Sequence record: OZ035746.1
Strand: one strand, 5' to 3'
Source of the DNA: Dhillonvirus LM40P1
Length of the DNA stretch: 45,119 nucleotides
The translations under genes were made by a program, and so were the position numbers. Numbering within the stretch: position 1 is the first letter of the stretch; every line of letters begins with the position of its first letter. Positions 4,587 through 43,668 of the stretch are shown piece after piece. Under the pieces are notes generated by a model. That model saw only the letters and a program-made list of their open reading frames with translations, searched no databases and was not told where the DNA came from.

Positions 4587-4887
4587 ATACGCAGCAGTCG
4601 GATTGATTCTCGGCCTTGTAATTGGGTTCTGGCAAGGTGACAACTATCGTGCTGGCGTGGTGGCGGAGGCGGCGCAGGAAGCGCAAGCCAAAGCCCAACG
4701 GCAGCAAACTAAGGTAATCCATGAGTCGGTACAGAAAGAGCAGGCCCGCGAAGTGGAGTTCCGCACAGTTGAGAAAGAGGTGATTAAATATGTCACGCGT
4801 CCTGATCGCGATAATTGTAAGTTTGATGCTGACCGCGTGCGGATCAAGCAACGTGCCGTTGATGCCGCTAACGGAATCAGCAATTAA
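4579..4887 (+). CDS. i-spanin (Rz-like), putative
   Basis: GTG start with AAGGGG RBS; N-terminal TM helix AAVGLILGLVIGFW followed by a charged coiled-coil-like region; overlaps a lipoprotein ORF in another frame. Confidence 0.5.
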   Translation: MIKYAAVGLILGLVIGFWQGDNYRAGVVAEAAQEAQAKAQRQQTKVIHESVQKEQAREVEFRTVEKEVIKYVTRPDRDNCKFDADRVRIKQRAVDAANGISN

Positions 4888-5795: not shown

Positions 5796-5825
5796 TGTTG
5801 TTTCCTCGTTTGTTGGTGTGCAACC

Positions 5826-5854
5826 AATATATTGCAACCAATTAGCCAATGCAA
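5826..5854 (-). promoter_or_regulatory. sigma70-like promoter TTGCAT-N17-TATATT (recurring promoter family)
   Basis: Minus-strand reading: TTGCAT (5854..5849), 17-nt spacer containing ATTGGTTGCA, TATATT (5831..5826); about 30 nt upstream of the ATG at 5795. Confidence 0.5.
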
Positions 5855-11448: not shown

Positions 11449-11451
11449 CAT

Positions 11452-11771
11452 AGCGGGACAGCGGGACGTCCCGTTTTTATCCCGCTGTCCCTCCCAGCCA
11501 AAAACTGCATACCTATTCAGAAATACTGCATAAAACCAAAACGGGACAAAAACGGGACAAGCAGGACGTCCCGCCTCAAAAGTGCATATCTATGCAGTTT
11601 TCGTGCATAAAACGAACGGGACAAAAACGGGACAAATTGCAAGCGGGACAGAGCGGGACGTCCCGCCGTCCCTGCCAGAGCTGCCGCGGGTTTCAGCCGA
11701 TCGGGACAGGCGGGACAAAGCCCAGTCTTTCAGACTAGACGGGGGTCAATGGCCCCCTCCGTCTGAGACTG
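11452..11771. repeat. non-coding repeat module, copy A (about 1.5 units): CGGGACA(A) repeats, GGGACGTCCC palindromes, TGCATAAAAC boxes, long imperfect hairpin
   Basis: About 11 CGGGAC(A/G) copies, several in ACGGGACAAAAACGGGACAA doublets at 10-bp phase; GGGACGTCCCG at 11463, 11564, 11655; hairpin-forming CAGTCTTTCAGACTAGACGGGGG...GCCCCCTCCGTCTGAGACTG at 11722-11771. The 11603-11771 part is roughly 80% identical to 40066-40244. Confidence 0.7.
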
Positions 11772-11838
11772 AATAAGGTTGGTTGCAAAATGACTGATAC
11801 AATACAAACGGCAACTTGCATAAAAAGGGGACTGCATA

Positions 11839-14481
11839 ATGGCAGATCAAGCGGCAGGCATCACGCTAAAGGCGGATGTTGCACAAATCAGAACGGCGAA
11901 TACTGTGCTTGATTCATTCGCACAGAAATCCGAGAACACAGAAAACAAGGTTAAGAAATTAAACAACACCCTCGGCAACTCTAAAAAGGTGACGAGTGAT
12001 GCCGCTGGCGGAATGGAAAAGCTGGCGAACGAATCGCATCGAGCAGCCGATGGCATGACGAAACAGGAGCGACTCGCCAACCGGTTAGGCATGTCGACCA
12101 AAAACCTGGGCTTTGCCTCGCGTAACGCCGCATTCCAGTTACAGGATATAGCGGTTACGCTTGAGATGGGTATGCCGGTGCACCGCGTCATGCTTCAGCA
12201 GTTACCACAGCTTACTGGGGCGTTCGGTGGGTTTGGTAACACGCTGCGTTATGTTGCTGGCTTCCTCGGCCCAGTAGGGATCGGAATTGCAGCACTAACG
12301 GCAACGTTAGGCGTAGGGGTGGCAATTACGTCACGTGCCGAAAACCAGGTAGCAGCGCTTAACAAGACGCTGGCGCTATCCGGTAACATTTCCGGCCTAA
12401 CTGCAAACCAGATCCTGGTGCTATCCGAGAACGCCGAGCGCATGGGCGGGTCGTTCCGCAAGACGCGTGACACAATCCAGGCGCTGGCGGCGGCGGGTGT
12501 GAAAGCGGGTGCAGACTTCGGCACGCTGGCGAAAGTGGTGAATGATTTTGCGAAGGCGTCCAGCCAGCCGATCGAGGATGTGGTCGCGGCGGTGGCGAAG
12601 CTGTCTACCGACCCGGTAGGTGGCTTGCGAGCATTGGCTGATAAGTATCACGTCGTAAACGAAGCGCAGATCCAGCAGGTGCAGTCACTAGTGACGGCTG
12701 GTCGCGAAACCGAAGCGGTGGCGCTGGCTAACAAAACAGCCGCAGCGTCGTTTACCACTATGACCAATGAGATCAAGTCCAACATGGGTACGCTTGAGCG
12801 GTCGATGAACGTCGTTACATCGGCAGCTAAATCTATGTGGGATGCCATCCTGGATGTTGGACGCGCGCAGTCCTCGAATGAGTCAGAGATGAAAGCGCGT
12901 GAATCATTGCAGCGACTGACCACGGCTTACTATGCCGAGATGAAAGCGGTAAACGCTGCCGGTGGGGTGATGACCGAAGCGCAGAAAGCGCGTATTAACA
13001 TGCTTTACAGCGAACTGGTCGCCCAGGAGAAGGTGGTGGCGTCGCTCACCCTGCGCAACCGTGCCGAGCGGGACAACGCCAGCGCCGCGGACGCAGCAGC
13101 AAAGGCGAACGAAGAGGCAAACCGCACCGCCCGCGACCGCGCTGCGTTTGAGAAGGAGTACGCAACCAACGCGAAGAGGCGCGCCGACGAGATCGCCCGC
13201 CTCAATTTGCTTAATAAGCGCGGCGTGATTGACGAGAAAGAGCTTGCCGAGGCGGTGAAGCAGGTAAACGAGCGTTACAAAGACCCCGCCCCGAAGAAGG
13301 CCGCCGCTGTTCGAGTCGATGCCGGGCTGAAAATGCTGGAAGTAGCACGGAGCGAACTGGCACAGCTTCGTGAGTCTGGAAAGCAGATCGAAGCCAACTC
13401 CTCGACGCAGACCCGAACGCAACGCGCGCAAGCGGCCCTGAACAAGCTGATCGCGGATAATGAGCAGTTAATCGCCGCAAGCAAAGAAAGAGCACTAACG
13501 GCAGCCGAAAAGCAGCAGATGGTCGAATTCGGACGCGTGAAGGAAGTACGCGAGCAGATCGTCGAAGAAGCCAAATTGCTGGACGCGAAAGAGAAGCAGG
13601 TCAAGGCGCACGCGCAGATCGACGCCTTCGTTAAGAACCAGAACGCCGAGCTAAAAGCCACCGCGGCGGGCTATGCGCTTTCCACTCGCGAAGCGGCAAA
13701 CCTGCGTGAAGAATTGCAGCTAATTGACCGCCTGAAGCGGGTGGGCGCTAGTGATACCGATATTGATCTGGCGGTGTCTAAACTGCGCGAAGTGCAGGAA
13801 GCACAGACCGGTGCTAACGCCTCACTATGGGATGGATTCAGCCGTGGGCTTAAGGATAGCGTGGATGAAATGGGTAACGGCTATACGCAGATGGTATCGG
13901 CAACGAAATTTACATTCGGCGCTATGATGGACACGATGAATGAATTTTTCGAGACTGGTAAATTCAACGCGAAGGAAATGATTAAATCCATCCTGAGCGA
14001 ATTTATCAAGCTGGCTACCTCGCAGGCGTTCAAGTCCGTAATCAACGCATTCGGCGGTGACGGTGGGAAGAATGGTCTGTTCGGGGCAATCTTCTCCGGT
14101 CTGACGAAGAATGCCGACGGCGGAGCGTACGCTGGCGGCAACCTGTCCGCATATTCCGGTCAGATCGTAAGCCAGCCAACCTTTTTCAATTACGGCGTTA
14201 AGGCGTTCGCTAACGGCGCGGGATTGATGGGTGAGGCTGGGCCGGAGGCCATCATGCCGCTGAAGCGCGGGCCGGACGGTAAACTGGGCGTTGCCGCAAG
14301 TGGGGCTGGTGGTGGTATCGTCGTGACAACGAACGTGAACATGGGTACAGGGCAGGCTGACACCAGCGTTAAAGGGACCGACCCGCGAATGGGGCAGGTA
14401 TTCGGCAAGCAGATCACGGAAGCGGTTAAGGCCGAAATCGTGAAAGCGACTAAACCAGGTGGAGTACTTTACAAACGATGA
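11839..14481 (+). CDS. tail tape measure protein
   Basis: 880-aa ORF; long helical charged central region; C-terminal Gly-rich region; position between chaperone and tail-tip genes. Confidence 0.8.
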   Translation: MADQAAGITLKADVAQIRTANTVLDSFAQKSENTENKVKKLNNTLGNSKKVTSDAAGGMEKLANESHRAADGMTKQERLANRLGMSTKNLGFASRNAAFQLQDIAVTLEMGMPVHRVMLQQLPQLTGAFGGFGNTLRYVAGFLGPVGIGIAALTATLGVGVAITSRAENQVAALNKTLALSGNISGLTANQILVLSENAERMGGSFRKTRDTIQALAAAGVKAGADFGTLAKVVNDFAKASSQPIEDVVAAVAKLSTDPVGGLRALADKYHVVNEAQIQQVQSLVTAGRETEAVALANKTAAASFTTMTNEIKSNMGTLERSMNVVTSAAKSMWDAILDVGRAQSSNESEMKARESLQRLTTAYYAEMKAVNAAGGVMTEAQKARINMLYSELVAQEKVVASLTLRNRAERDNASAADAAAKANEEANRTARDRAAFEKEYATNAKRRADEIARLNLLNKRGVIDEKELAEAVKQVNERYKDPAPKKAAAVRVDAGLKMLEVARSELAQLRESGKQIEANSSTQTRTQRAQAALNKLIADNEQLIAASKERALTAAEKQQMVEFGRVKEVREQIVEEAKLLDAKEKQVKAHAQIDAFVKNQNAELKATAAGYALSTREAANLREELQLIDRLKRVGASDTDIDLAVSKLREVQEAQTGANASLWDGFSRGLKDSVDEMGNGYTQMVSATKFTFGAMMDTMNEFFETGKFNAKEMIKSILSEFIKLATSQAFKSVINAFGGDGGKNGLFGAIFSGLTKNADGGAYAGGNLSAYSGQIVSQPTFFNYGVKAFANGAGLMGEAGPEAIMPLKRGPDGKLGVAASGAGGGIVVTTNVNMGTGQADTSVKGTDPRMGQVFGKQITEAVKAEIVKATKPGGVLYKR

Positions 14482-21945: not shown

Positions 21946-21974
21946 AATATAGTGCAACCAATACGTGATTGCAA
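21946..21974 (-). promoter_or_regulatory. sigma70-like promoter TTGCAA-N17-TATATT (recurring family)
   Basis: Minus-strand reading: TTGCAA (21974..21969), 17-nt spacer containing ATTGGTTGCA, TATATT (21951..21946); about 30 nt upstream of the lipoprotein ATG. Confidence 0.5.
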
Positions 21975-21997
21975 CCAATTTATGAGGAGTTTTCGCT

Positions 21998-26341: not shown

Positions 26342-26370
26342 AATATAGTGCAACCAAATACGGATTGCAA
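26342..26370 (-). promoter_or_regulatory. sigma70-like promoter TTGCAA-N17-TATATT (recurring family)
   Basis: Minus-strand reading: TTGCAA (26370..26365), spacer containing TTGGTTGCA, TATATT (26347..26342); overlaps the 3' end of the upstream gene. Confidence 0.5.
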
Positions 26371-26374
26371 CCAA

Positions 26375-26596
26375 TTATTTTAATTCCTCAATCAAATTGG
26401 CACGGACAATACGGGCCGAGAAGGCATCGCACACAAGATGGCAACGCGCCGTCATGACAAGCCAGCCGGTTAGGTCACGGCCTAGCAATTGCTCCGGGCG
26501 GCTTACCCGCAATACTTTATTTCCAGGGAAAACCTGGTAACGTTTAATGATCTCATCCACGACGCGCGGACTGCGATCGACGACTAAGATATTCAT
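26375..26596 (-). CDS. hypothetical protein (73 aa)
   Basis: ATG 26596 with AAGGAGA RBS; overlaps the 3' end of the methyltransferase gene. Confidence 0.45.
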   Translation of the reverse strand: MNILVVDRSPRVVDEIIKRYQVFPGNKVLRVSRPEQLLGRDLTGWLVMTARCHLVCDAFSARIVRANLIEELK

Positions 26597-27772: not shown

Positions 27773-27803
27773 AAAAAAAAAGGGCGTTCCCTTCGGAACA
27801 CCC
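27773..27803 (-). terminator. intrinsic terminator (minus strand) between promoter and gene
   Basis: Minus-strand RNA GGGUGUUCC-GAAG-GGAACGCCC (9-bp stem including a G-U pair) followed by nine U (plus-strand A-run 27773-27781). Confidence 0.65.
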
Positions 27804-27805
27804 TC

Positions 27806-27834
27806 AATATAATGCAACCAATCTCGCAATGCAA
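27806..27834 (-). promoter_or_regulatory. sigma70-like promoter TTGCAT-N17-TATATT (recurring family)
   Basis: Minus-strand reading: TTGCAT (27834..27829), spacer containing ATTGGTTGCA, TATATT (27811..27806); predicted start falls inside the 5' arm of the terminator stem. Confidence 0.5.
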
Positions 27835-27839
27835 CCAAT

Positions 27840-30562: not shown

Positions 30563-30736
30563 TTATTCGCGTTCTTCACGATAGCGGCGCTGCCGTTCTC
30601 GTTCGGCCTTGTTCCGGCACGATTTACACTGCGCACGATACCCGTCGGGGCTACGTGCTGTTTTGCCAGTGTACTTATGAAATTGCGATAGCGGTTTAAC
30701 ACAGCCGCATTGGCTGCAACGTTTTTCTTCAATCAT
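30563..30736 (-). CDS. zinc-ribbon protein (57 aa)
   Basis: ORF 30563..30766 (GTG); ATG 30736 with GAGG RBS; CSQCGC...CKSC four-Cys motif and a basic tail. Confidence 0.45.
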   Translation of the reverse strand: MIEEKRCSQCGCVKPLSQFHKYTGKTARSPDGYRAQCKSCRNKAERERQRRYREERE

Positions 30737-30766
30737 CTTAAATGCCTCGTTAGTCCTAACCTGCAC

Positions 30767-30795
30767 ACTATAACTTTATGCGACCAATTCCGCAA
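30767..30795 (-). promoter_or_regulatory. weak promoter variant TTGCGG-N17-TATAGT with GGTTGC half-sites
   Basis: Minus-strand reading: ATTGGTTGCGGAATTGGTCGCATAAAGTTATAGT; overlaps the 3' end of the VRR-NUC gene. Confidence 0.3.
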
Positions 30796-31054
30796 CCAAT
30801 AAATCAGCGTCGTGAATGTTGTCGATTACGCGAACGTCGGCCCCGCGCTTCGCCATGCGCTCATGTTCACGTACCTGGTGCGGCTTCGGCTTACCACCGG
30901 GGCGCTTCACTTCAACGAATACGACTCTGCCGTTGATGATGATAATCAGGTCGGGAGCGCCGGTACGCCCTTCCCATGCCATTTTACGGCAGAATCCACC
31001 TGCCTCTTTTACCTCTTTCATCAGGTGACTTTGCACCTTGCCTTCAGGAGTCAT
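30776..31054 (-). CDS. VRR-NUC domain nuclease
   Basis: 92-aa ORF; PD-(D/E)xK core APDLIIIINGRVVFVEVKRPGGK; TAATG overlap with the polymerase gene. Confidence 0.65.
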   Translation of the reverse strand: MTPEGKVQSHLMKEVKEAGGFCRKMAWEGRTGAPDLIIIINGRVVFVEVKRPGGKPKPHQVREHERMAKRGADVRVIDNIHDADLLVAELVA

Positions 31055-34339: not shown

Positions 34340-34435
34340 TTTCCAATTCCTCATTTCACATGTATCGGGGTTATTATAAGCCACCCCGTCCGGCTTGGTT
34401 GCTAATGTACTTGGTTGCGTTTCCGCGGTCAAGTG

Positions 34436-36579: not shown

Positions 36580-37083
36580 TTAGTCTTCCAGTTCGAAATA
36601 AGTTTCGACAATTTCTTTCAAGTCGTGGTGGAAGTCTTCCACGTCTTCGTCGTCCAGTTTAGCGACGGACTTGATTTCGTACGACTCCAGCAGGTCGTCA
36701 AATTCGTCGTTAGCATCGTCATCGTCGCCGCCTGCAATGATTGCCGCGTATTGTGCAATTTCATCGCGCATTTCTTTCAGCGGATCGGCGTCTTTCTTAG
36801 CCTTCCCTTTGCCCTTGCCTTTGGCTGGCTTTTCTTCCGGTTCGTCTTCGTCGTCGTCATCTTCTACAACTTCTTTTTTCGCCTTGCCCTTAGCCGTGGA
36901 CTTCTTAGCTGGCTTCTTATCTTCCTGCTCGTCATCTTCGTCTTTGGCTTCTTCTTTCTTAGCCTTAGACGGTTTCTTATCTTCCTGCTTACCAACGGCA
37001 GCGCCCTGGGTTTCGTAATGTTTAGCGATGGTTTCCAGTGCTACTACGCCGCGAGTAATCAGATTCAGGATTTGCTCAAACAT
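36580..37083 (-). CDS. acidic low-complexity protein (167 aa), first gene of the early minus-strand operon
   Basis: ORF 36580..37320; ATG 37083 with GGAGA RBS, about 40 nt downstream of a TTGACA-N18-TATTAT promoter; Lys-rich and Asp/Glu-rich blocks; very acidic C-terminus. Confidence 0.5.
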   Translation of the reverse strand: MFEQILNLITRGVVALETIAKHYETQGAAVGKQEDKKPSKAKKEEAKDEDDEQEDKKPAKKSTAKGKAKKEVVEDDDDEDEPEEKPAKGKGKGKAKKDADPLKEMRDEIAQYAAIIAGGDDDDANDEFDDLLESYEIKSVAKLDDEDVEDFHHDLKEIVETYFELED

Positions 37084-37130
37084 GGTGTGTCTCCGTTTAG
37101 TTAAAAGTGAATGTCGTTTCGACGAGGTGA

Positions 37131-37160
37131 ATAATAGATTGGTTGCAGGAGGGGTGTCAA
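37131..37160 (-). promoter_or_regulatory. strong sigma70-like early promoter (TTGACA-N18-TATTAT)
   Basis: Minus-strand reading: TTGACA (37160..37155), 18-nt spacer containing CTGCAACCAATC, TATTAT (37136..37131). Confidence 0.5.
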
Positions 37161-37170
37161 CAACTAATTT

Positions 37171-37204
37171 AAAAAAAAATCCCCGAAGCAAAACGCAACG
37201 GGGA
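37171..37204 (-). terminator. intrinsic terminator (minus strand) immediately upstream of the early promoter
   Basis: Minus-strand UCCCCG-UUGCGUUUUGCUU-CGGGGA hairpin followed by nine U (plus-strand A-run 37171-37179). Confidence 0.5.
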
Positions 37205-37274
37205 TAACCATAAGAGACAATGAGACTGGTTTTATTATTACACGCGCGCGCACCCGTTTCAATATACAAAACAG

Positions 37275-37303
37275 TTGACACCGGTTTGATTTGGGTGTAG
37301 TTT
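37275..37303 (+). promoter_or_regulatory. candidate sigma70 promoter TTGACA-N17-TAGTTT for the plus-strand early operon
   Basis: Consensus -35 at 37275-37280; -10-like TAGTTT at 37298-37303; about 30 nt upstream of the ATG at 37334. Confidence 0.4.
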
Positions 37304-37333
37304 CTCTGGTCATTAACCAACAGGAGACGGATT

Positions 37334-37663
37334 ATGAATATTAATGACGCAATCGAGATGTTAACTAATGCTGTGAGCGGTGAAACCAGCAGGTCCTGGG
37401 CTTACACAGATGCCGTTGGTGAGGTGCTATTTGAGATCGAACGCCTGCGCACAGTCGAGAAAGCGCTTACCGCCAAACTTGAATTGCTGAACGGTACGGC
37501 AGCGAGCAAGCTGCAAAAGCATAACGAAGAAATGGAAGAATACAAAAAGCAGGTTATCCAATTGCGCAATGAGGGTAAGTCCTGGGCAATGATTGCCGAG
37601 CTAACAGGCATTAATCAAAGCACTGTACGCTCCTGGGTACGCAATGCTAAAACCGCTAAGTAA
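37334..37663 (+). CDS. HTH DNA-binding protein (putative transcriptional regulator)
   Basis: 109-aa ORF with GGAGA RBS; C-terminal HTH-like SWAMIAELTGINQSTVRSWVRNAK. Confidence 0.45.
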   Translation: MNINDAIEMLTNAVSGETSRSWAYTDAVGEVLFEIERLRTVEKALTAKLELLNGTAASKLQKHNEEMEEYKKQVIQLRNEGKSWAMIAELTGINQSTVRSWVRNAKTAK

Positions 37664-37675
37664 GGACTTGAGACG

Positions 37676-39940
37676 ATGAGAAATATAGAATTTGCGATCA
37701 CACCTCCGGCAAAAAGGGGTGAATCAGCGGTAGCCCATAACCAATCCATGACTACCGCCGAGTTTTTCGAGTTTATGCTGGATGCGCCGGTAGTATCGTC
37801 AGTTTGCATTAACGGTACTGAAGATAAAAAAGAATATGCGCGACGTAAGCGTAAAGGCGACGGCATTGTGGCTACAACCGCCGATGGCACGCGTAAAAAG
37901 ACTGGCGTGGTTAGCCGCTCGATCCTGTTCTTCGACCTGGACCGTGCTGACAACCGCACACTTACCCGCTGCCGCAGGGCTTTCCGTAAGTCCGGCCTGG
38001 AATATGTCTACCACACCACCACCGGCGACCGCCACCCGTTGAAAGACGGCAAGCGCTGTGTGCGTTTCCTGGTGCTGACAAACAAGCCAGTTCCGGCGGA
38101 AGACTTGGGTCGCGCGCAGGCTGCACTGCTTGAGCAACTGGGTCTTACCGACGCGGGCTTTGATGACTGCTCGAAAGACACAAACCGCCTTATGTACCTG
38201 CCCCACCAGCAGGCTAAGGTCGAGTGTCATGAGGGTGAACGCGCTAACGTGCGTCGTCTGCTTCGCCTGGCTGACAAGATGGGTATTGAGCAGGAAACGT
38301 TTCGCCGTGAACTGGTGCAGGGCGACGACGAGCAGATGAACGGCATCCTCGACTGGTGTTTCCAGGCTGGTTTTGAGCCGTTACCATCCGGGCGCGGTTA
38401 TGAAGTACCGTGCCCAAACGAACATCTGCACTCTGGTGAAGGGTCTACCGCTATCATGCTTAAGGATGGCGAGATTCGTTTCAAATGTATGCACACCGGC
38501 AACGGATGCTGTTCTGAACTGAACAAACACCAACACCTGGCGCTGCGAATGATTGGTATCCCGGATATTTATAACGTGGAACCTCACAACATGTCGCGCA
38601 AACAGATCTCGGCAATCCTGCCCGGACTGGACGATGAAGAAGTGGACGCGCAGTATGAGCACATGGTCGATCTGGTTGGCGAAGGGGAGGATTATGCGTC
38701 CTGTACTGACGCAGACCTGGAAGACGAACCAACGGCACTGTTCTCTAAACACGACCCGATCATCGAAGGTCTGATTAACTTTAAATCGACCTGGTACGCA
38801 GCGGGTGAGTCGAACATTGGTAAGTCCTTCTTCGTCCTGGGTCAGATGGCTGCCGTTGCCGCTGGCATCCCGTTCGGCGGCGCGAAGGTCGTCCAGTCCC
38901 ATTGCTTCTACTTCGATGCGGAAGGTGGCGAGGCGTCCCACCAGCGTAAAGAAGCGTTGCAGATTAAATATGAGCACGACCTGGACAAGCTGCACATTAT
39001 CGACCTTCAGGCACGCGGCTGGGATATTACGAGCAAGTCCGGCCTGCGTGAAGTCATCAGCTTTATCAACCGCACCGCGGATGGGGAACCGGTCGGCCTG
39101 GTGGCGTTCGACTCCCTTAACCAGACCGTGGCCCTGCGCTCGGCAGATGCCAAACCGTTCGACGAGAACAACGCAAGCGATATGGGTGAGATTGTCAAAG
39201 CGCTGAAGTCCATTGCGGAAAACACAGGAGGCAGTGCGGGCGTCATTCACCACCCGGCGAAGGGTGCAAACGGCAGCCGATCCCCGCGTGGATCCGGTGC
39301 GCTACATGGCGCGGTGGATTCTGCATTCTTCCTGGAACAGCCAGACGAGAATCAGCCAGGCCAGCTTAACCTCTATCATGAGAAAGCCCGTAACGGCGTG
39401 AAACAGGGTCCGCGCGGCTTCGTGCTACTGAAGTGCAAAGTGTCCATTAACGAGCGCAAGTCCGACTCGTTCGAAGCACACCAGTCTACCAATCCGGGGC
39501 CAGACTTCGGCGATGTGGTTGCCGGTTGGGACGTAAAACCGATCCAGGCCACACCGCGCGACGAGACTCTGTACCTTGTTCCGGTAGCTCTGGCCCCGTT
39601 TGCTATCGAACAGGCTAAGGCGGCAGGCAAGCAGGCTGTTAAGGAAGAAAACCCCGCCGGTCCGCGCAATGAAAAAGAGAAAGTGCTTTACGCAGCGCTC
39701 GAAGCGTTGATGGAAGAGAATCCGGGACACCATGGCTTCAGCAAATCGGCAATCGTCCGCAAAGCCGGACTGGCGAAAGGTGGCACATCGACGAAGCCAA
39801 TAGACGATATGCGTGAGCGCGGAATCATCGGCTTTTACAAAGACCCTGACACCGGGGCCATTTACGGGTCGTCGAATCTGGTTATCAATTCACAAATACC
39901 TATGCAATTGACGGCGACGGATGATGATTTGAAAGATTAA
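37676..39940 (+). CDS. DNA primase-helicase (AEP-type primase-like N-terminus plus RecA/DnaB-like ATPase)
   Basis: 754-aa ORF; N-terminal FFDLDRAD motif; ATPase Walker A GESNIGKS and Walker B-like VAFDSL. Confidence 0.65.
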   Translation: MRNIEFAITPPAKRGESAVAHNQSMTTAEFFEFMLDAPVVSSVCINGTEDKKEYARRKRKGDGIVATTADGTRKKTGVVSRSILFFDLDRADNRTLTRCRRAFRKSGLEYVYHTTTGDRHPLKDGKRCVRFLVLTNKPVPAEDLGRAQAALLEQLGLTDAGFDDCSKDTNRLMYLPHQQAKVECHEGERANVRRLLRLADKMGIEQETFRRELVQGDDEQMNGILDWCFQAGFEPLPSGRGYEVPCPNEHLHSGEGSTAIMLKDGEIRFKCMHTGNGCCSELNKHQHLALRMIGIPDIYNVEPHNMSRKQISAILPGLDDEEVDAQYEHMVDLVGEGEDYASCTDADLEDEPTALFSKHDPIIEGLINFKSTWYAAGESNIGKSFFVLGQMAAVAAGIPFGGAKVVQSHCFYFDAEGGEASHQRKEALQIKYEHDLDKLHIIDLQARGWDITSKSGLREVISFINRTADGEPVGLVAFDSLNQTVALRSADAKPFDENNASDMGEIVKALKSIAENTGGSAGVIHHPAKGANGSRSPRGSGALHGAVDSAFFLEQPDENQPGQLNLYHEKARNGVKQGPRGFVLLKCKVSINERKSDSFEAHQSTNPGPDFGDVVAGWDVKPIQATPRDETLYLVPVALAPFAIEQAKAAGKQAVKEENPAGPRNEKEKVLYAALEALMEENPGHHGFSKSAIVRKAGLAKGGTSTKPIDDMRERGIIGFYKDPDTGAIYGSSNLVINSQIPMQLTATDDDLKD

Positions 39941-39945
39941 TTTTT

Positions 39946-40028
39946 GCGCGCATTGGTTGCCAATATGGTTAATTTGTGCGCGCATTGGTTGCCAGATTGG
40001 GCATTAAATCTATATCGCATTGGTTGCC
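39946..40028 (+). repeat. three direct iterons GCGCGCATTGGTTGCC(A)
   Basis: 39946-39962 and 39978-39994 are identical 17-mers; a shorter third copy TCGCATTGGTTGCC lies at 40015-40028; spacing about 32 and 35 bp. Confidence 0.65.
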
Positions 40029-40065
40029 GTGTAGTGCTAAATAAGTGAATAGTTATGCAAAATAA

Positions 40066-40244
40066 GTGCATAAAACAAACGGGACAAAAACGGGACAAAC
40101 GACAAACGGGACAAAACGGGACGTCCCGCCGTCCCCCTCAGGAGTGGCGCGGGTTTGAGGCAAACGGGACAAGCGGGACAGACCACAGTCTTTCAGACTA
40201 GACGGGGGGTATTGTCCCCCCTCCGTCTGAGACTGCATAAAATC
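40066..40244. repeat. non-coding repeat module, copy B
   Basis: GTGCATAAAACAAACGGGACAAAAACGGGACAA..., GGGACGTCCCGCC at 40119-40131, hairpin CAGTCTTTCAGACTAGACGGGGGG...CCCCCCTCCGTCTGAGACTG; same order and orientation as 11603-11771. Confidence 0.7.
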
Positions 40245-40394
40245 TCTGGTTGCATAATCAACGGCAGCATAGTGAAAAATGCGGCGGGGGTAGATCTCGG
40301 CAACCAATGCGAGTTGAAGAGTGGAGAGTGAAAAATGCAGTTTGCAATTGCAACTCATAGCGATCAGCATTTTCATGCGCGTGATTAATATTGG

Positions 40395-40423
40395 TTGCAT
40401 TCGTCCTGCCAGGGTGTTAGATT
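40395..40423 (+). promoter_or_regulatory. promoter of the recurring family, plus orientation (TTGCAT-N17-TAGATT)
   Basis: ATTGGTTGCAT at 40390-40400 and TAGATTGGTTGCA at 40418-40430; about 30 nt upstream of the ATG at 40452. Confidence 0.4.
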
Positions 40424-40451
40424 GGTTGCACACCAACATGAGGACTGAACG

Positions 40452-40757
40452 ATGAGAGCATTAATCTGGAATTACACAATGGCTGTGGCGAAGCTGTACG
40501 AAGCGAAGCACACAAACGGCAACGCAGACGACGCGCGCCAGGCTGTCATCCTGGCCCAGCAGGGAATCATGAACGCGTTCGACGATATGTTTGCCAGCCT
40601 GGACGAACTGGAACCGCTGCGCGTGGCAATCTGCGAATATGCGATGGCATTTGCCCGTGAACGCCTGGCATACCGGTTTGGTATCGGGGAAACGGCAGTG
40701 GCTAACATCGCCCGCATTCAGGCCCAGCGTGAGCTGCACGCCATACTCGCGAAATAA
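40452..40757 (+). CDS. hypothetical protein (101 aa)
   Basis: GAGGA RBS; first gene after the repeat region. Confidence 0.45.
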   Translation: MRALIWNYTMAVAKLYEAKHTNGNADDARQAVILAQQGIMNAFDDMFASLDELEPLRVAICEYAMAFARERLAYRFGIGETAVANIARIQAQRELHAILAK

Positions 40758-40766
40758 GGGGCCAAA

Positions 40767-41036
40767 ATGACACGCAGACGCGCTCAATGGCTTTCATGGC
40801 ACATTCCCCTACATAGCATCCGTTTATGGGCGCAGAACGCGATTGAGGGCGATTCTGTGTTCTGGAGCTATCGGGATGACGTCAAGCCGCTGACGCAGAC
40901 CAGAAAGCTGCACCAGTTCATGAACGAACACGGACTGCCGGTGAAAACATCATTGCAACCAATCGGCATCCGTATTACATTACGCCGTAAGCCAATCGTT
41001 GAGCAGGTTGGAAAACACAGGAGACTGACAAAATGA
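40767..41036 (+). CDS. hypothetical protein (89 aa, basic)
   Basis: AAGGGG RBS. Confidence 0.45.
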   Translation: MTRRRAQWLSWHIPLHSIRLWAQNAIEGDSVFWSYRDDVKPLTQTRKLHQFMNEHGLPVKTSLQPIGIRITLRRKPIVEQVGKHRRLTK

Positions 41037-43581: not shown

Positions 43582-43668
43582 ATTGCTTGACTTGCAACCA
43601 ATTAATAGCTCATACTTCTGTCGCCGTGGTATATTGATCGCGGTCAAACTGAATCAGGAAAATATACG

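What the first reader, a model, noticed from the sequence alone, without database searches (positions are those of the whole stretch)
39946..40244. Candidate replication origin: three iterons plus repeat module just downstream of the primase-helicase
Directly after the primase-helicase stop (39940) there are three direct repeats of GCGCGCATTGGTTGCC (two identical 17-mers and one shorter copy, about 32-35 bp apart), followed by AT-rich sequence and copy B of the CGGGACA module, in a 510-bp gene-free interval. Iterons next to a replication initiator gene are the classic arrangement of phage and plasmid origins. The iteron core ATTGGTTGC is the same motif found in the recurring promoters, so replication and transcription control may share a DNA-binding factor.
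Basis: partly seen in the sequence, partly recalled or inferred. Interest (0 to 1): 0.6.

Follow-up and report, generated by a model that had tools for sequence, protein, structure and literature searches.

The report
Phage origin region: two repeat classes
The gene-free stretch after this E. coli phage's primase-helicase gene probably is a replication-origin region, but the initiator most likely reads the short CGGGACA repeats (present at two places in the genome), while the three repeats first flagged are copies of a motif found in many of the phage's promoters.

Summary
The window is a complete Dhillonvirus genome (HK578-like coliphage). Three direct repeats (core CGCATTGGTTGCC) follow the primase-helicase stop. 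An AT-rich stretch and "module B" of CGGGACA repeats come next.

ATTGGTTGC occurs 17 times (0.56 expected). It lies in at least nine sigma-70-type promoters, in either orientation and sometimes inside the spacer, so it looks like the operator of a global regulator. After the helicase gene its copy number (1-3) and orientation vary among relatives.

The CGGGACA module behaves like an initiator's site array:
- It sits after the primase-helicase gene in several genera.
- It is duplicated before the tape-measure gene.
- Its 6-7-bp repeat is lineage-specific (CGGGACA, GTGGCA, GTGCCA, GGTGCCA, CGCCCCG and others).
- The repeat changes together at both loci.
- It tracks nine residues, all in the last 195 residues of the primase-helicase. 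Three of them lie at DNA-facing positions of its predicted C-terminal winged helix.

The upstream HTH protein stays constant across these lineages.

Best reading: a bipartite origin that works like P4 ori/crr or the pRN1 origin, with operator sites bracketing module B. Nothing here has been tested experimentally.

The parts
37334..37663 (+). gp45-position gene. It encodes a 109-aa protein with a C-terminal sigma-70 region-4 / HTH_23-type helix-turn-helix and is the first gene of the replication operon.
   Evidence: Pfam Sigma70_r4_2 E=6e-7 and HTH_23; NCBIfam ECF-sigma region 4. The recognition helix IN(Q/V/A)STVRSWVRN is unchanged in lineages whose module repeat differs. HK578 OLD-escape mutations map to the gp45-gp46 promoter and to gp46.
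37676..39940 (+). Primase-helicase gene (754 aa). Domains: AEP prim-pol (about 1-200), Cys/His cluster (246-279), RepA/DnaB-like AAA_25 helicase (355-531), winged helix (about 666-737) and an acidic tail DDDLKD.
39937..39962 (+). ATTGGTTGCC repeat 1 (core GCGCGCATTGGTTGCC at 39946-39961).
   Evidence: Present in only 6 of 15 aligned Dhillonviruses.
39969..39994 (+). ATTGGTTGCC repeat 2 (core at 39978-39993).
   Evidence: Present in 14 of 15 relatives.
40004..40029 (+). ATTGGTTGCC repeat 3 (TCGCATTGGTTGCCG at 40015-40029).
   Evidence: Present in all 15 relatives, where ATTGGTTGCCGTG is invariant.
40031..40076 (.). AT-rich stretch, a candidate unwinding element. It holds the near-invariant box GAATAGTTATGCA (40047-40059) and the inverted pair TTATGCA (40053-59) / TGCATAA (40067-73).
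   Evidence: 72% A+T, z=3.3, about the 8th least stable 45-mer in the genome. The box is invariant in Dhillonviruses and present in Cornellvirus and in L024/L026/L027. It forms a 7-bp hairpin in ssDNA folds of either strand.
40080..40135 (+). CGGGACA array. Four direct copies start at 40080, 40091, 40107 and 40117, separated by A-tracts. Inverted copies GTCCCG (40123-28) and GTCCC (40131-35) follow.
   Evidence: The positions are invariant in the alignment. The repeat is replaced by GTGGCA, GTGCCA or GGTGCCA in intermediate relatives and by other motifs in more distant genera.
40136..40164 (.). G+C-rich spacer of module B (contains the conserved GCGCGG).
   Evidence: This spacer differs between modules A and B (52-68% identity), while module A's spacer is 84% identical between this genome and EK99P-1.
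40165..40180 (+). Pair of CGGGACA copies (40165, 40174). They can pair with the inverted copies at 40123-40135 when the DNA is single-stranded.
40186..40235 (.). Long G+C-rich hairpin/palindrome CAGTCTTTCAGACTAGACGGGGGG-TATTGT-CCCCCCTCCGTCTGAGACTG, with no T-run after it.
   Evidence: The stem is conserved and the loop varies among Dhillonviruses. Palindromes of different sequence occupy the same place in L024, L026, L027, Shemara and eiAU.
40298..40312 (-). Inverted copy of repeat 3 (CGGCAACCAATGCGA). Together with repeat 3 it brackets module B (268 bp between them).
   Evidence: Inverted repeat I2, 15/15 complementary. GGCAACCAATGC is present in all 14 other aligned Dhillonviruses.
40390..40430 (+). 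Predicted sigma-70 promoter of the next operon: -35 TTGCAT at 40395-40400, 17-bp spacer, -10 TAGATT at 40418-40423. One ATTGGTTGCA lies over the -35 (40390-99) and one over the -10/+1 (40421-30).
   Evidence: Sequence and motif contexts. Conserved as TAGATT or TATATT in relatives. Read by eye; the consensus scan did not list it.
11580..11771 (+). Module A, the twin of module B, in the gap between the tail-chaperone and tape-measure genes. It has the palindromic box, the CGGGACA array with the same spacing, and the hairpin at 11723-11771.
   Evidence: 85% identical to module B overall and 90% in the repeat-array half. Most IMG/VR Dhillonvirus contigs carry two modules.
11450..11579 (+). Two extra partial module units upstream of module A (CGGGAC at 11454, 11462, 11542, 11553; palindromes GGGACGTCCC).

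Best explanation
The interval 39.94-40.45 kb is the cis-acting control region attached to the replication operon (gp45 HTH protein plus primase-helicase).

Its core is module B (about 40031-40235). From left to right it contains an AT-rich stretch with a palindromic box, four direct and two inverted CGGGACA repeats separated by phased A-tracts, a G+C-rich spacer, two more repeats and a long palindrome.

Proposed mechanism (inferred):
1. The primase-helicase binds the CGGGACA repeats through its own C-terminal winged helix.
2. It assembles there and opens the neighbouring AT-rich DNA.
3. It primes with its own AEP primase domain. No DnaA box is needed or present.

Module A, 28 kb away in front of the tape-measure gene, is a second site of the same kind. 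It could be a second origin or a P4-crr-like partner.

The three ATTGGTTGCC repeats and the inverted copy beyond the module are not the initiator's iterons. They are extra copies of the phage's global operator, which lies in at least nine promoters. The operator is probably bound by a transcription regulator; gp45 is the only recognisable candidate. At this locus the sites bracket module B. They most likely couple or insulate the origin from read-through of the terminator-less replication operon and from the next promoter.

Shown here: the sequence anatomy, the conservation, the concerted change of the repeat at two loci, the covariation with the C-terminal part of the primase-helicase, and the predicted folds.

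Inferred: all protein-DNA binding, DNA melting, and origin function itself.
For: 1. Architecture and position. A non-coding module with the same layout follows the primase-helicase stop in Dhillonvirus, Eiauvirus, Cornellvirus and three further lineages. The short repeat differs in each: CGGGACA, CGCCCCG, GGGGGAG, TCCGACA, GGGATAA, GGGGAT(G/A)A.

2. Enrichment. 16 of the 24 plus-strand CGGGAC copies in the genome lie in the two modules, with identical spacing.

3. Relatives with 66-79% identical helicases. The repeat is CGGGACA, GTGGCA, GTGCCA or GGTGCCA, while ATTGGTTGCC and the gp45 recognition helix do not change.

4. Covariation. Nine helicase columns are invariant in CGGGACA phages and differ in all other-motif phages. 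All nine lie at residues 560-748 and none at 1-559 (9 of 124 versus 0 of 305 variable columns, Fisher p = 1e-5). Three of them (S691, T704, S733) sit at the start of helix 2, the start of the recognition helix and the wing of the predicted winged helix. The CGGGACA lineage L209/L213 groups with the other-motif lineages in the core-helicase tree.

5. Both loci change together.
- Contig ERR11172925_9173 starts in a GTGGCA module A and ends in a GTGGCA module B, with an identical 27 nt at both ends.
- Sample ERR13731138 has GTGGCA in both modules.
- A GGTGCCA module A also exists.

6. Within-genome similarity. The repeat-array halves of A and B are 90-94% identical within a genome. The same halves are 78% identical between the two genomes compared.

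7. An unrelated case. In G+C-rich viral contig L244, a 752-aa AEP plus AAA_25 protein is followed right after its stop by 9 direct and 5 inverted CGGGAC repeats.

9. Physical features. The AT-rich stretch has z = 3.3. Single-stranded DNA of either strand folds into three hairpins, z = -2.9 and -3.5. There is no DnaA box.

10. ATTGGTTGC as an operator. There are 17 copies against 0.56 expected. It lies inside the spacers of TTGACA-18-TATTAT (37160-37131, minus strand) and TTGACT-18-CATACT (43587, plus strand). Elsewhere it covers the -35, -10 or +1 positions.
Against: - There is no experimental evidence of any kind, and I found no mapped origin for this phage group.
- Linkage caveat. The co-varying part of the helicase gene lies directly next to module B, so joint inheritance by recombination could produce the covariation. 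Gene conversion between A and B could spread a new repeat to the second locus without any function. Only the uniform replacement of every repeat copy argues for a trans-acting reader.
- Whole-domain C-terminal identity does not separate the motif groups cleanly (window-L214 61%, window-L209 61%).
- The AT-rich stretch is not the least stable segment of the genome.
- The cumulative GC-skew minimum is at about 37 kb, at the divergent early promoters, not here. This is confounded by gene orientation.
- Helicase relatives L017-L023 carry no module after the gene.
- The binder of ATTGGTTGC is unidentified. Phage eiAU has the motif but has a non-homologous XRE-type protein at the gp45 position.
- Both modules keep the same orientation relative to transcription, which would also fit an RNA-level role.
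Confidence: 0.5

Rival explanations
1. The three ATTGGTTGCC direct repeats are the origin iterons. They are bound by the replication initiator (the primase-helicase or the HTH protein), which melts the adjacent AT-rich DNA. The CGGGACA module is an accessory element.
For: - There are three direct repeats roughly three helical turns apart, immediately after the initiator gene and next to an AT-rich stretch.
- Clusters of the same motif follow the helicase gene in every Dhillonvirus-like lineage and in eiAU, where there are at least seven copies.
- In eiAU and in L246 the motif also clusters beside module A.
- Plasmid Rep proteins often both initiate replication and repress promoters.
Against: - Copy number is 1-3, spacing 16-54 bp, and orientation is direct, inverted or mixed among close relatives.
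- The same 9-mer lies in at least nine promoters, including inside spacers.
- The motif does not change when the module repeat and the helicase C-terminal region change.
- The motif is shared by genera with non-homologous small HTH proteins and divergent helicase C-termini.
- In this genome module A has only one degenerate copy (GTTGGTTGC, 11778).
Confidence: 0.15
2. The interval is purely a transcription- or RNA-level control region. The ATTGGTTGCC cluster is an operator array, acting as a roadblock or insulator at the end of the terminator-less gp45-gp46 operon and controlling the 40395 promoter. The modules are transcribed elements, such as processing, stabilising or antitermination sites, or DNA sites for a lineage-specific regulator of late genes. 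One module sits ahead of the lysis/packaging/head genes and one ahead of the tail genes. On this view the origin lies elsewhere.
For: - The motif is clearly promoter-associated.
- No intrinsic terminator lies between the helicase stop and the module.
- Both modules lie in the same orientation inside the long rightward transcription unit, and each is followed by a promoter-like sequence: 40395-40423, and TGATACAAT at 11795-11803.
- In distant relatives the module sits 40-150 bp upstream of a near-consensus promoter.
- A conserved box plus a lineage-specific element recalls nut sites (from general knowledge).
Against: - Arrays of 6-10 identical short repeats in direct and inverted orientation with A-tract phasing are typical of DNA-binding arrays, not of RNA hairpin signals.
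- The palindromes pair equally well on both strands, with Watson-Crick pairs only.
- No Rfam family matches.
- The only phage protein segment found to track the repeat type is the C-terminal part of the primase-helicase.
- L244 shows the same gene-then-array arrangement in an unrelated element.
Confidence: 0.2
3. The modules are packaging signals (pac or cos accessory sites) bound by the small terminase subunit.
For: Repeated short protein-binding sites that differ between lineages are also typical of terminase recognition regions. The deposited eiAU genome starts inside its module A region.
Against: - There are two copies per genome, 28 kb and 17 kb apart.
- Module B lies 5 kb upstream of terS and directly after the replication gene.
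- Cornellvirus has a different structural and terminase module but keeps the module after the helicase gene.
- The eiAU record ends overlap by 16 nt, and metagenome contigs break at the modules. Both look like assembly effects at repeats.
Confidence: 0.05

Closest known systems
Satellite phage P4: alpha protein with ori and crr (recalled from established knowledge: Flensburg and Calendar 1987; Ziegelin et al. 1993; Yeo et al. 2002)
   Same: [quoted passage not shown] - There are two separate clusters of these repeats in the genome, one of them next to the initiator gene.
- No DnaA is involved.
   Different: - P4 alpha has a different primase type and a superfamily-3 helicase. Here the primase is AEP-type and the helicase is RepA/DnaB-like AAA_25.
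- There is no detectable sequence similarity.
- The two clusters are 28 kb apart rather than 4.5 kb, and are near-identical 170-190-bp modules that also contain a long palindrome.
- Whether both modules are needed is unknown.
Archaeal plasmid pRN1: ORF904 and its origin (PMC4234260)
   Same: - The replication protein combines an AEP prim-pol, a helicase and a winged helix.
- It is co-transcribed with a small DNA-binding repressor (orf56; here gp45).
- The essential cis element is a roughly 100-bp stem-loop just downstream of the replication gene.
- The pRN1 authors noted the same layout in a phage, BIP-1.
   Different: - ORF904 has an SF3 helicase.
- The pRN1 origin has no described array of short repeats.
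- pRN1 has only one copy of the element.
- For pRN1 the function was shown by deletion analysis. Nothing has been tested here.
IncQ plasmid RSF1010 oriV with RepA, RepB' and RepC (recalled from established knowledge: Scherzinger et al. 1991; Geibel et al. 2009)
   Same: - The helicase belongs to the RepA type (Pfam AAA_25).
- The origin logic is the same: iterons, then G+C-rich and AT-rich segments, then palindromes used as single-strand initiation signals. It is independent of DnaA.
   Different: - In RSF1010 the three activities are separate proteins and the iterons are 20 bp long. Here the activities are fused and the repeats are 6-7 bp.
- No RepC-like protein was looked for.
- Whether the palindromes here act as priming signals is unknown.
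Bacillus phage SPP1 oriL/oriR (recalled from established knowledge: Pedre et al. 1994)
   Same: A virulent siphovirus has two copies of the initiator-binding repeat region, one in the replication gene cluster and one among the late genes.
   Different: The SPP1 initiator G38P is a separate origin-binding protein that works with a helicase loader and a DnaB-type helicase. Its repeats and proteins are unrelated to those here.
Operators of a global phage or plasmid repressor placed inside promoters (for example KorA operators of IncP plasmids; recalled)
   Same: ATTGGTTGC is a short, invariant site that overlaps the -35, spacer, -10 or +1 of many promoters in both orientations. Extra copies lie near the replication region.
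   Different: The binding protein is not identified. The sites are single or tandem direct repeats rather than palindromes.

Membership tests
Iteron-type origin next to its initiator gene | Three or more direct repeats close to the initiator gene | tested here: met
   ATTGGTTGCC occurs three times at 39946-40029. CGGGACA occurs four times directly at 40080-40122, with two more copies at 40165-40180 and inverted copies.
Iteron-type origin next to its initiator gene | The repeat sequence is specific to the initiator and changes with it | tested here: met
   Met for CGGGACA: it changes to GTGGCA, GTGCCA or GGTGCCA along with nine C-terminal helicase residues, at both modules. Not met for ATTGGTTGCC, which stays invariant across the same lineages and across genera.
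Iteron-type origin next to its initiator gene | Adjacent AT-rich unwinding element | tested here: met
   40031-40076, 72% A+T, z = 3.3, about the 8th least stable 45-mer in the genome. It is present but not unique.
Iteron-type origin next to its initiator gene | The initiator binds the repeats and the region supports replication | not testable with these tools
   This needs EMSA or footprinting, an ori-plasmid assay, or marker-frequency sequencing.
Iteron-type origin next to its initiator gene | DnaA boxes (present in many but not all such origins) | tested here: not met
   TTWTNCACA occurs twice in the genome (3.1 expected) and not near the interval.
P4 alpha-type initiator with ori plus crr | Primase, helicase and C-terminal winged helix in one protein | tested here: met
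   AEP fold, AAA_25, winged-helix model.
P4 alpha-type initiator with ori plus crr | Superfamily-3 helicase and P4-type primase (homology to alpha) | tested here: not met
   The helicase domain is RepA/DnaB-like PF13481. There is no PDB sequence match. It is therefore not a member of this family, only a functional analogue.
P4 alpha-type initiator with ori plus crr | Short repeats in direct and inverted orientation at two separate loci | tested here: met
   Modules A and B, found in most Dhillonvirus contigs.
pRN1 ORF904-type replicon | AEP prim-pol domain | tested here: met
pRN1 ORF904-type replicon | SF3 helicase domain | tested here: not met
   The domain is AAA_25 instead.
pRN1 ORF904-type replicon | Large stem-loop downstream of the replication gene; small DNA-binding protein co-transcribed upstream | tested here: met
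   Palindrome at 40186-40235 plus two further hairpins, z = -2.9 and -3.5. gp45 HTH gene directly upstream. Co-transcription is assumed from the 12-bp gap and from the HK578 report.
Operator sites of a transcription regulator | The motif overlaps core promoter elements at many promoters, independent of orientation | tested here: met
   Sites near 5820-5842, 21954-21979, 26350-26375, 27814-27839, 30780-30800, 34394-34418, 37138, 40390-40430 and 43594. Several lie inside 17-18-bp spacers. The promoters are predicted, not mapped.
Known RNA families (Rfam 15) | Match to a covariance model | tested here: not met
   No hit at gathering score in the window. Only E of about 1 noise in 39900-40500.

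The most novel reading that the evidence does not exclude
Dhillonviruses and their relatives (Eiauvirus, part of Guernseyvirinae) may replicate from a previously undescribed kind of bipartite origin. On this reading, two near-identical modules of about 190 bp lie 28 kb apart. Each is an array of 6-7-bp repeats read by the winged helix of a fused AEP-primase / RepA-helicase. Three winged-helix positions (691, 704, 733) would form a simple specificity code that has switched at least four times among close relatives. A separate global operator (ATTGGTTGC) brackets the module and would tie initiation to the transcription programme.
Probability: 0.35. Interest if true: 0.65.

Novelty: new variant of a known kind. 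Interest (0 to 1): 0.55.

Why it matters
No replication origin has been mapped for Dhillonvirus (HK578-like) phages in the literature I could search. These phages are common in coliphage collections and in anti-phage defence studies. HK578 mutants that escape the OLD defence map to this same replication operon.

The analysis gives a concrete and cheap hypothesis to test:
- It names which repeats the initiator reads.
- It points to a second site in the tail-gene region.
- It identifies three residues that should switch specificity.

If correct, it would provide matched initiator/site pairs that differ between close relatives. Such pairs are useful for studying origin recognition by AEP-primase/helicase fusions, incompatibility between co-infecting phages, and how defence systems sense phage origins.

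The analysis also flags that the conspicuous three-repeat array belongs to the transcription network, which changes which deletion or cloning experiment would be informative.

Tried and rejected
- GC skew. The cumulative minimum at about 37 kb and the maximum at about 25 kb follow gene orientation, so the profile is not diagnostic for an origin.
- Rfam at gathering and at E-value thresholds, and a tRNA scan: nothing found.
- DnaA boxes: none near the interval.
- Consensus promoter and terminator scan of the interval: no plus-strand terminator and no listed promoter. The promoters I describe were read by eye and with a relaxed script.
- Exact 14-mer scan for TGAATAGTTATGCA in IMG/VR: mostly chance hits, uninformative.
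- Full-text search for the motif string: only unrelated primer sequences.
- Protein search with the C-terminal fragment alone: two hits, useless. Repeated with the full-length protein.
- Search for the ATTGGTTGC binder. Presence/absence of window proteins in eiAU and Shemara and Pfam scans of small early proteins of the window and of eiAU found no second DNA-binding protein.
- An early inference that the small HTH protein reads the module repeats. It came from three distant lineages and was dropped once intermediate lineages showed an unchanged gp45 helix beside changed repeats.
- Readings of the motifs considered by eye and not supported: sigma-54 promoter (wrong GG-GC spacing), CytR octamer (the conserved part extends beyond it) and PdhR/GntR-type box (wrong spacing).
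- TGAATAGTTATGCA resembles an ArgR box. This is from memory only and was not tested.
- The minus-strand ORF 40053-40439 and a small plus-strand ORF inside the module were rejected as genes.
Full report
**Context.** The window is a complete Dhillonvirus genome. It is 97-99% identical over the queried segments to Escherichia phage Ioannina and to 'Dhillonvirus LM40P1' records, and about 80% identical to EK99P-1, JL1 and others.

Genes from 37334 rightwards, continuing through the genome end to about 25 kb, lie on the plus strand. They run in this order: HTH protein, primase-helicase, small genes, lysis, packaging, head, tail. The other early and replication genes lie on the minus strand between about 25 and 37.3 kb.

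- The primase-helicase ORF ends at 39940.
- Units of 26 nt lie at 39937-62, 39969-94 (96% identical) and 40004-29 (73%), spaced 32 and 35 bp.
- The 13-mer CGCATTGGTTGCC occurs four times in the genome (0.14 expected), all in this interval. Three copies are direct. One inverted copy at 40299-40311 lies beyond the CGGGACA module, so the sites bracket the module.
- An AT-rich stretch (40031-40076) and module B (to 40235) follow.
- The interval is non-coding. The 128-aa minus-strand ORF annotated in Ioannina is open in only 4 of 15 relatives, is hit by 1-nt indels and matches no family.

**What ATTGGTTGC is.** The exact 9-mer occurs 17 times against 0.56 expected. Outside the interval it sits in sigma-70-type promoters:
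- As tandem pairs 17 bp apart, covering the -35 (TTGCAA) and the spacer of TTGCAA-17-TATATT promoters at 21979-21954, 26375-26350 and 27839-27814 (minus strand).
- Over the -10/+1 at 5842-5820 (minus strand) and 40390-40430 (plus strand).
- In reverse orientation inside the spacer of near-consensus promoters: TTGACA-18-TATTAT at 37160-37131 (the leftward early promoter), TTGACT-18-CATACT at 43587, and TTGACC-17-TACATT at 34432.

A site that works in both orientations and inside spacers is an operator, not a promoter element. The same core recurs at promoters of Edwardsiella phage eiAU, of a Kagunavirus and of Jerseyvirus.

The only recognisable sequence-specific regulator in the genome is the 109-aa protein at 37334-37663, which has a sigma-70 region-4 / HTH_23-type HTH. 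I could not test whether it binds the motif, because neither the protein helix nor the motif varies among the lineages that carry both. eiAU has the motif but carries a non-homologous XRE-type protein at that position.

**The three repeats in relatives.** I aligned this window with 14 other Dhillonviruses.
- Repeat 3 is present in all 15, repeat 2 in 14 and repeat 1 in only 6.
- Five relatives carry a 22-bp palindromic insert between repeats 1 and 2.
- More distant Dhillonvirus-like lineages have two copies 16 bp apart in direct orientation (L210, L211), two in reverse orientation (L015, L209, L213) or a direct-inverted-direct arrangement (L212).
- eiAU has at least seven copies in mixed orientation.

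A cluster of these sites after the helicase gene is therefore conserved, but its number, phase and polarity are not.

**The module.** Module B (40066-40235, with its AT-rich leader from 40031) is duplicated as module A (11603-11771, leader from 11580) in the gap between the tail-chaperone and tape-measure genes. Two extra partial units lie upstream of A.
- 16 of the 24 plus-strand CGGGAC copies in the genome lie in the two modules. The spacing is the same in both: 11, 16, 10, 48, 9 bp.
- Most Dhillonvirus contigs in IMG/VR have two modules.
- The layout also follows the primase-helicase stop in eiAU, Cornellvirus (Shemara, St162, PhiSTP2) and three metagenomic lineages. That layout is the box GAATAGTTATGCA...TGCATAA, then a run of short repeats with inverted copies, a G+C-rich spacer, two more repeats, a long palindrome and ACGGCA(G/A)CA.
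- The short repeat differs in each lineage: CGCCCCG, GGGGGAG, TCCGACA, GGGATAA, GGGGAT(G/A)A.
- eiAU also has the second copy before its tape-measure gene. Shemara, which has an unrelated tail module, has only one copy.

**Who reads the short repeats.** Relatives whose helicase is 66-79% identical were recovered with their flanking DNA.
- All keep the sigma-4-type gp45 with the same recognition helix, and all keep ATTGGTTGCC.
- The module repeat is CGGGACA (L208, L215, L209, L213, L015), GTGGCA (L210, L211), GTGCCA (L212) or GGTGCCA (L214).
- In a tree built from the helicase core, the CGGGACA lineage L209/L213 groups with the other-motif lineages.
- Nine alignment columns are invariant in CGGGACA phages and differ in every other-motif phage. 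All nine fall at residues 560-748 and none at 1-559: 9 of 124 versus 0 of 305 variable columns, Fisher p = 1e-5.
- Three of the nine columns are S691 (start of helix 2), T704 (start of the recognition helix) and S733 (wing).

**Both loci switch together.**
- Contig ERR11172925_9173 starts 215 bp before its tape-measure gene inside a GTGGCA module A. It ends 110 bp after its helicase gene inside a GTGGCA module B. Both ends carry the same 27 nt.
- In sample ERR13731138, module A has six direct and three inverted GTGGCA and no CGGGAC, matching module B from the same sample.
- A GGTGCCA module A exists.
- The L209 lineage has CGGGAC in module A.
- Between this window and EK99P-1, the repeat-array halves of A and B are 90-94% identical within a genome but 78% identical between orthologous positions. 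Module A's spacer is 84% identical between the two genomes but only 57-68% identical to module B in the same genome.

**An independent case.** A scan for two adjacent CGGGACA repeats found an unrelated G+C-rich viral contig (L244). It encodes a 752-aa protein with AEP motifs and an AAA_25 domain, 29% identical to ours in the helicase part. Directly after its stop codon lie nine direct and five inverted CGGGAC(AA) repeats within 250 bp.

**The protein.**
- D87, D89, H120 and D163 are invariant, and a Cys/His cluster lies at 246-279.
- The centre of the protein is a RepA/DnaB-like AAA_25 domain.
- The protein ends in an acidic tail.

**Physical features of the interval.**
- The AT-rich stretch is among the eight least stable 45-mers of the genome.
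- The repeats are separated by A-tracts at about one helical turn (direct reading of the sequence).
- Either strand folds as ssDNA into three hairpins, z = -2.9 and -3.5.
- There are no DnaA boxes.

**Model.** The most likely reading is that the primase-helicase recognises the CGGGACA arrays with its own winged helix, assembles there, opens the AT-rich leader and primes itself. Modules B and A would be two origins or an origin plus an enhancer. The ATTGGTTGCC sites are operator copies that bracket module B. No terminator separates the replication operon from the module, and the next promoter (40395-40423) carries two more operators. The sites therefore probably gate transcription into and out of the origin region.

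- Shown: the sequence anatomy, the conservation, the concerted change at two loci, the covariation and the folds.
- Inferred: binding, melting, priming and origin activity.

**Caveats.**
- The co-varying gene segment abuts module B, so linkage plus gene conversion between A and B could mimic part of the signal.
- The winged-helix match is generic.
- GC skew does not single out this site.
- Some helicase relatives (L017-L023) lack a downstream module.
- An RNA-level or late-transcription role for the modules is not excluded.

**Comparison with known systems and literature.** The system works like P4 alpha with ori/crr and like pRN1 ORF904 with its downstream stem-loop origin (PMC4234260). It uses RSF1010-type enzymes. 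It is not a member of the P4 or pRN1 families, because its helicase is not SF3.

I found no paper that maps a Dhillonvirus origin. One preprint places HK578 OLD-escape mutations in gp46 and in the gp45-gp46 promoter and links them to replication initiation.

Noticed in passing
window 5820-5842(-), 21954-21979(-), 26350-26375(-), 27814-27839(-), 30780-30800(-), 34394-34418(+), 37138-37146(+), 43594-43602(-), 40955-40963(-): ATTGGTTGC(A) acts as a genome-wide operator-like motif in predicted sigma-70 promoters. It often occurs as tandem pairs 14-17 bp apart, and sometimes in reverse orientation inside the spacer of near-consensus promoters. One copy (40955) lies inside a coding region. The binding protein is unidentified.
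   Followed up: partly
window 11450-11840: The gap between the tail-chaperone and tape-measure genes holds three tandem sub-units of the module (10 direct CGGGAC copies, more than module B). An extended -10-like TGATACAAT follows at 11795-11803, just before the tape-measure start. Module A might be the stronger site.
   Followed up: partly
window 27775-27839 (-): A predicted promoter with two ATTGGTTGCA copies is followed within about 10 nt by a strong terminator-like hairpin and T-run (GGGTGTTCCGAAGGGAACGCCC-T9). This could be an attenuator or a shared terminator.
   Followed up: no
window 37083-37334: The divergent early control region holds two leftward promoters (37160-37131 and 37262-37234), a rightward TTGACA-17-TAGTTT promoter (37275-37303), an A9 tract and a hairpin (37172-37210). 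It coincides with the cumulative GC-skew minimum. It is an alternative place to look for an origin, but it has no CGGGACA repeats.
   Followed up: partly
L244 (IMG/VR 3300015606_000838) 11480-13996; L242 (3300043399_000952) 4600-4800: Two unrelated G+C-rich viral contigs have dense CGGGACA(A) arrays. In L244 the array lies directly after a 752-aa AEP + AAA_25 protein gene. In L242 seven copies lie before a 183-aa ORF of unknown function.
   Followed up: partly
L003, L005, L006, L013, L016, about 30-50 nt after the helicase stop: A 22-bp insert containing a perfect palindrome ATATGGGAATTCCCATAT lies between repeats 1 and 2 in several Dhillonviruses. It is absent from this window.
   Followed up: no
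Gene upstream of the primase-helicase in the window, L081, L082, L205, L206: The small DNA-binding protein encoded just upstream of the primase-helicase gene is of three unrelated types in related genera. Dhillonvirus has a sigma-4/HTH_23 type, Eiauvirus and Cornellvirus an XRE type, and Kagunavirus and Jerseyvirus an Xis/MerR-like type. The last two also carry an XRE regulator on the opposite strand downstream.
   Followed up: partly
L210/L245 (contig ERR11172925_9173), L081 ends: Metagenome contigs and the deposited eiAU record begin and end inside the modules with identical terminal sequence. This suggests assemblers break at these repeats. Genome 'ends' reported there should not be read as physical termini.
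   Followed up: partly
window 40047-40059 and 11583-11596: The near-invariant box TGAATAGTTATGCA (module B) or TGCATATCTATGCA (module A) is a 14-bp imperfect palindrome. It occurs twice, 21 bp apart, in Cornellvirus, L024 and L026. From memory it resembles an ArgR box. This was not tested.
   Followed up: no
window 30563-30766 (-): A small protein with a CxxC...CxxC zinc-ribbon pattern and a basic tail is conserved at 49-63% identity in eiAU and Shemara and has no Pfam match. It is a possible unrecognised DNA-binding protein and hence a candidate reader of ATTGGTTGC.
   Followed up: no
window 36580-37083 (-): The first gene of the leftward early operon (PHROG 3127) encodes a protein with a long Lys/Ala/Pro/Glu-rich low-complexity centre, conserved across all the related genera examined. 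The listed 246-aa ORF starting at TTG 37320 is probably too long, since the family match begins at residue 80.
   Followed up: no
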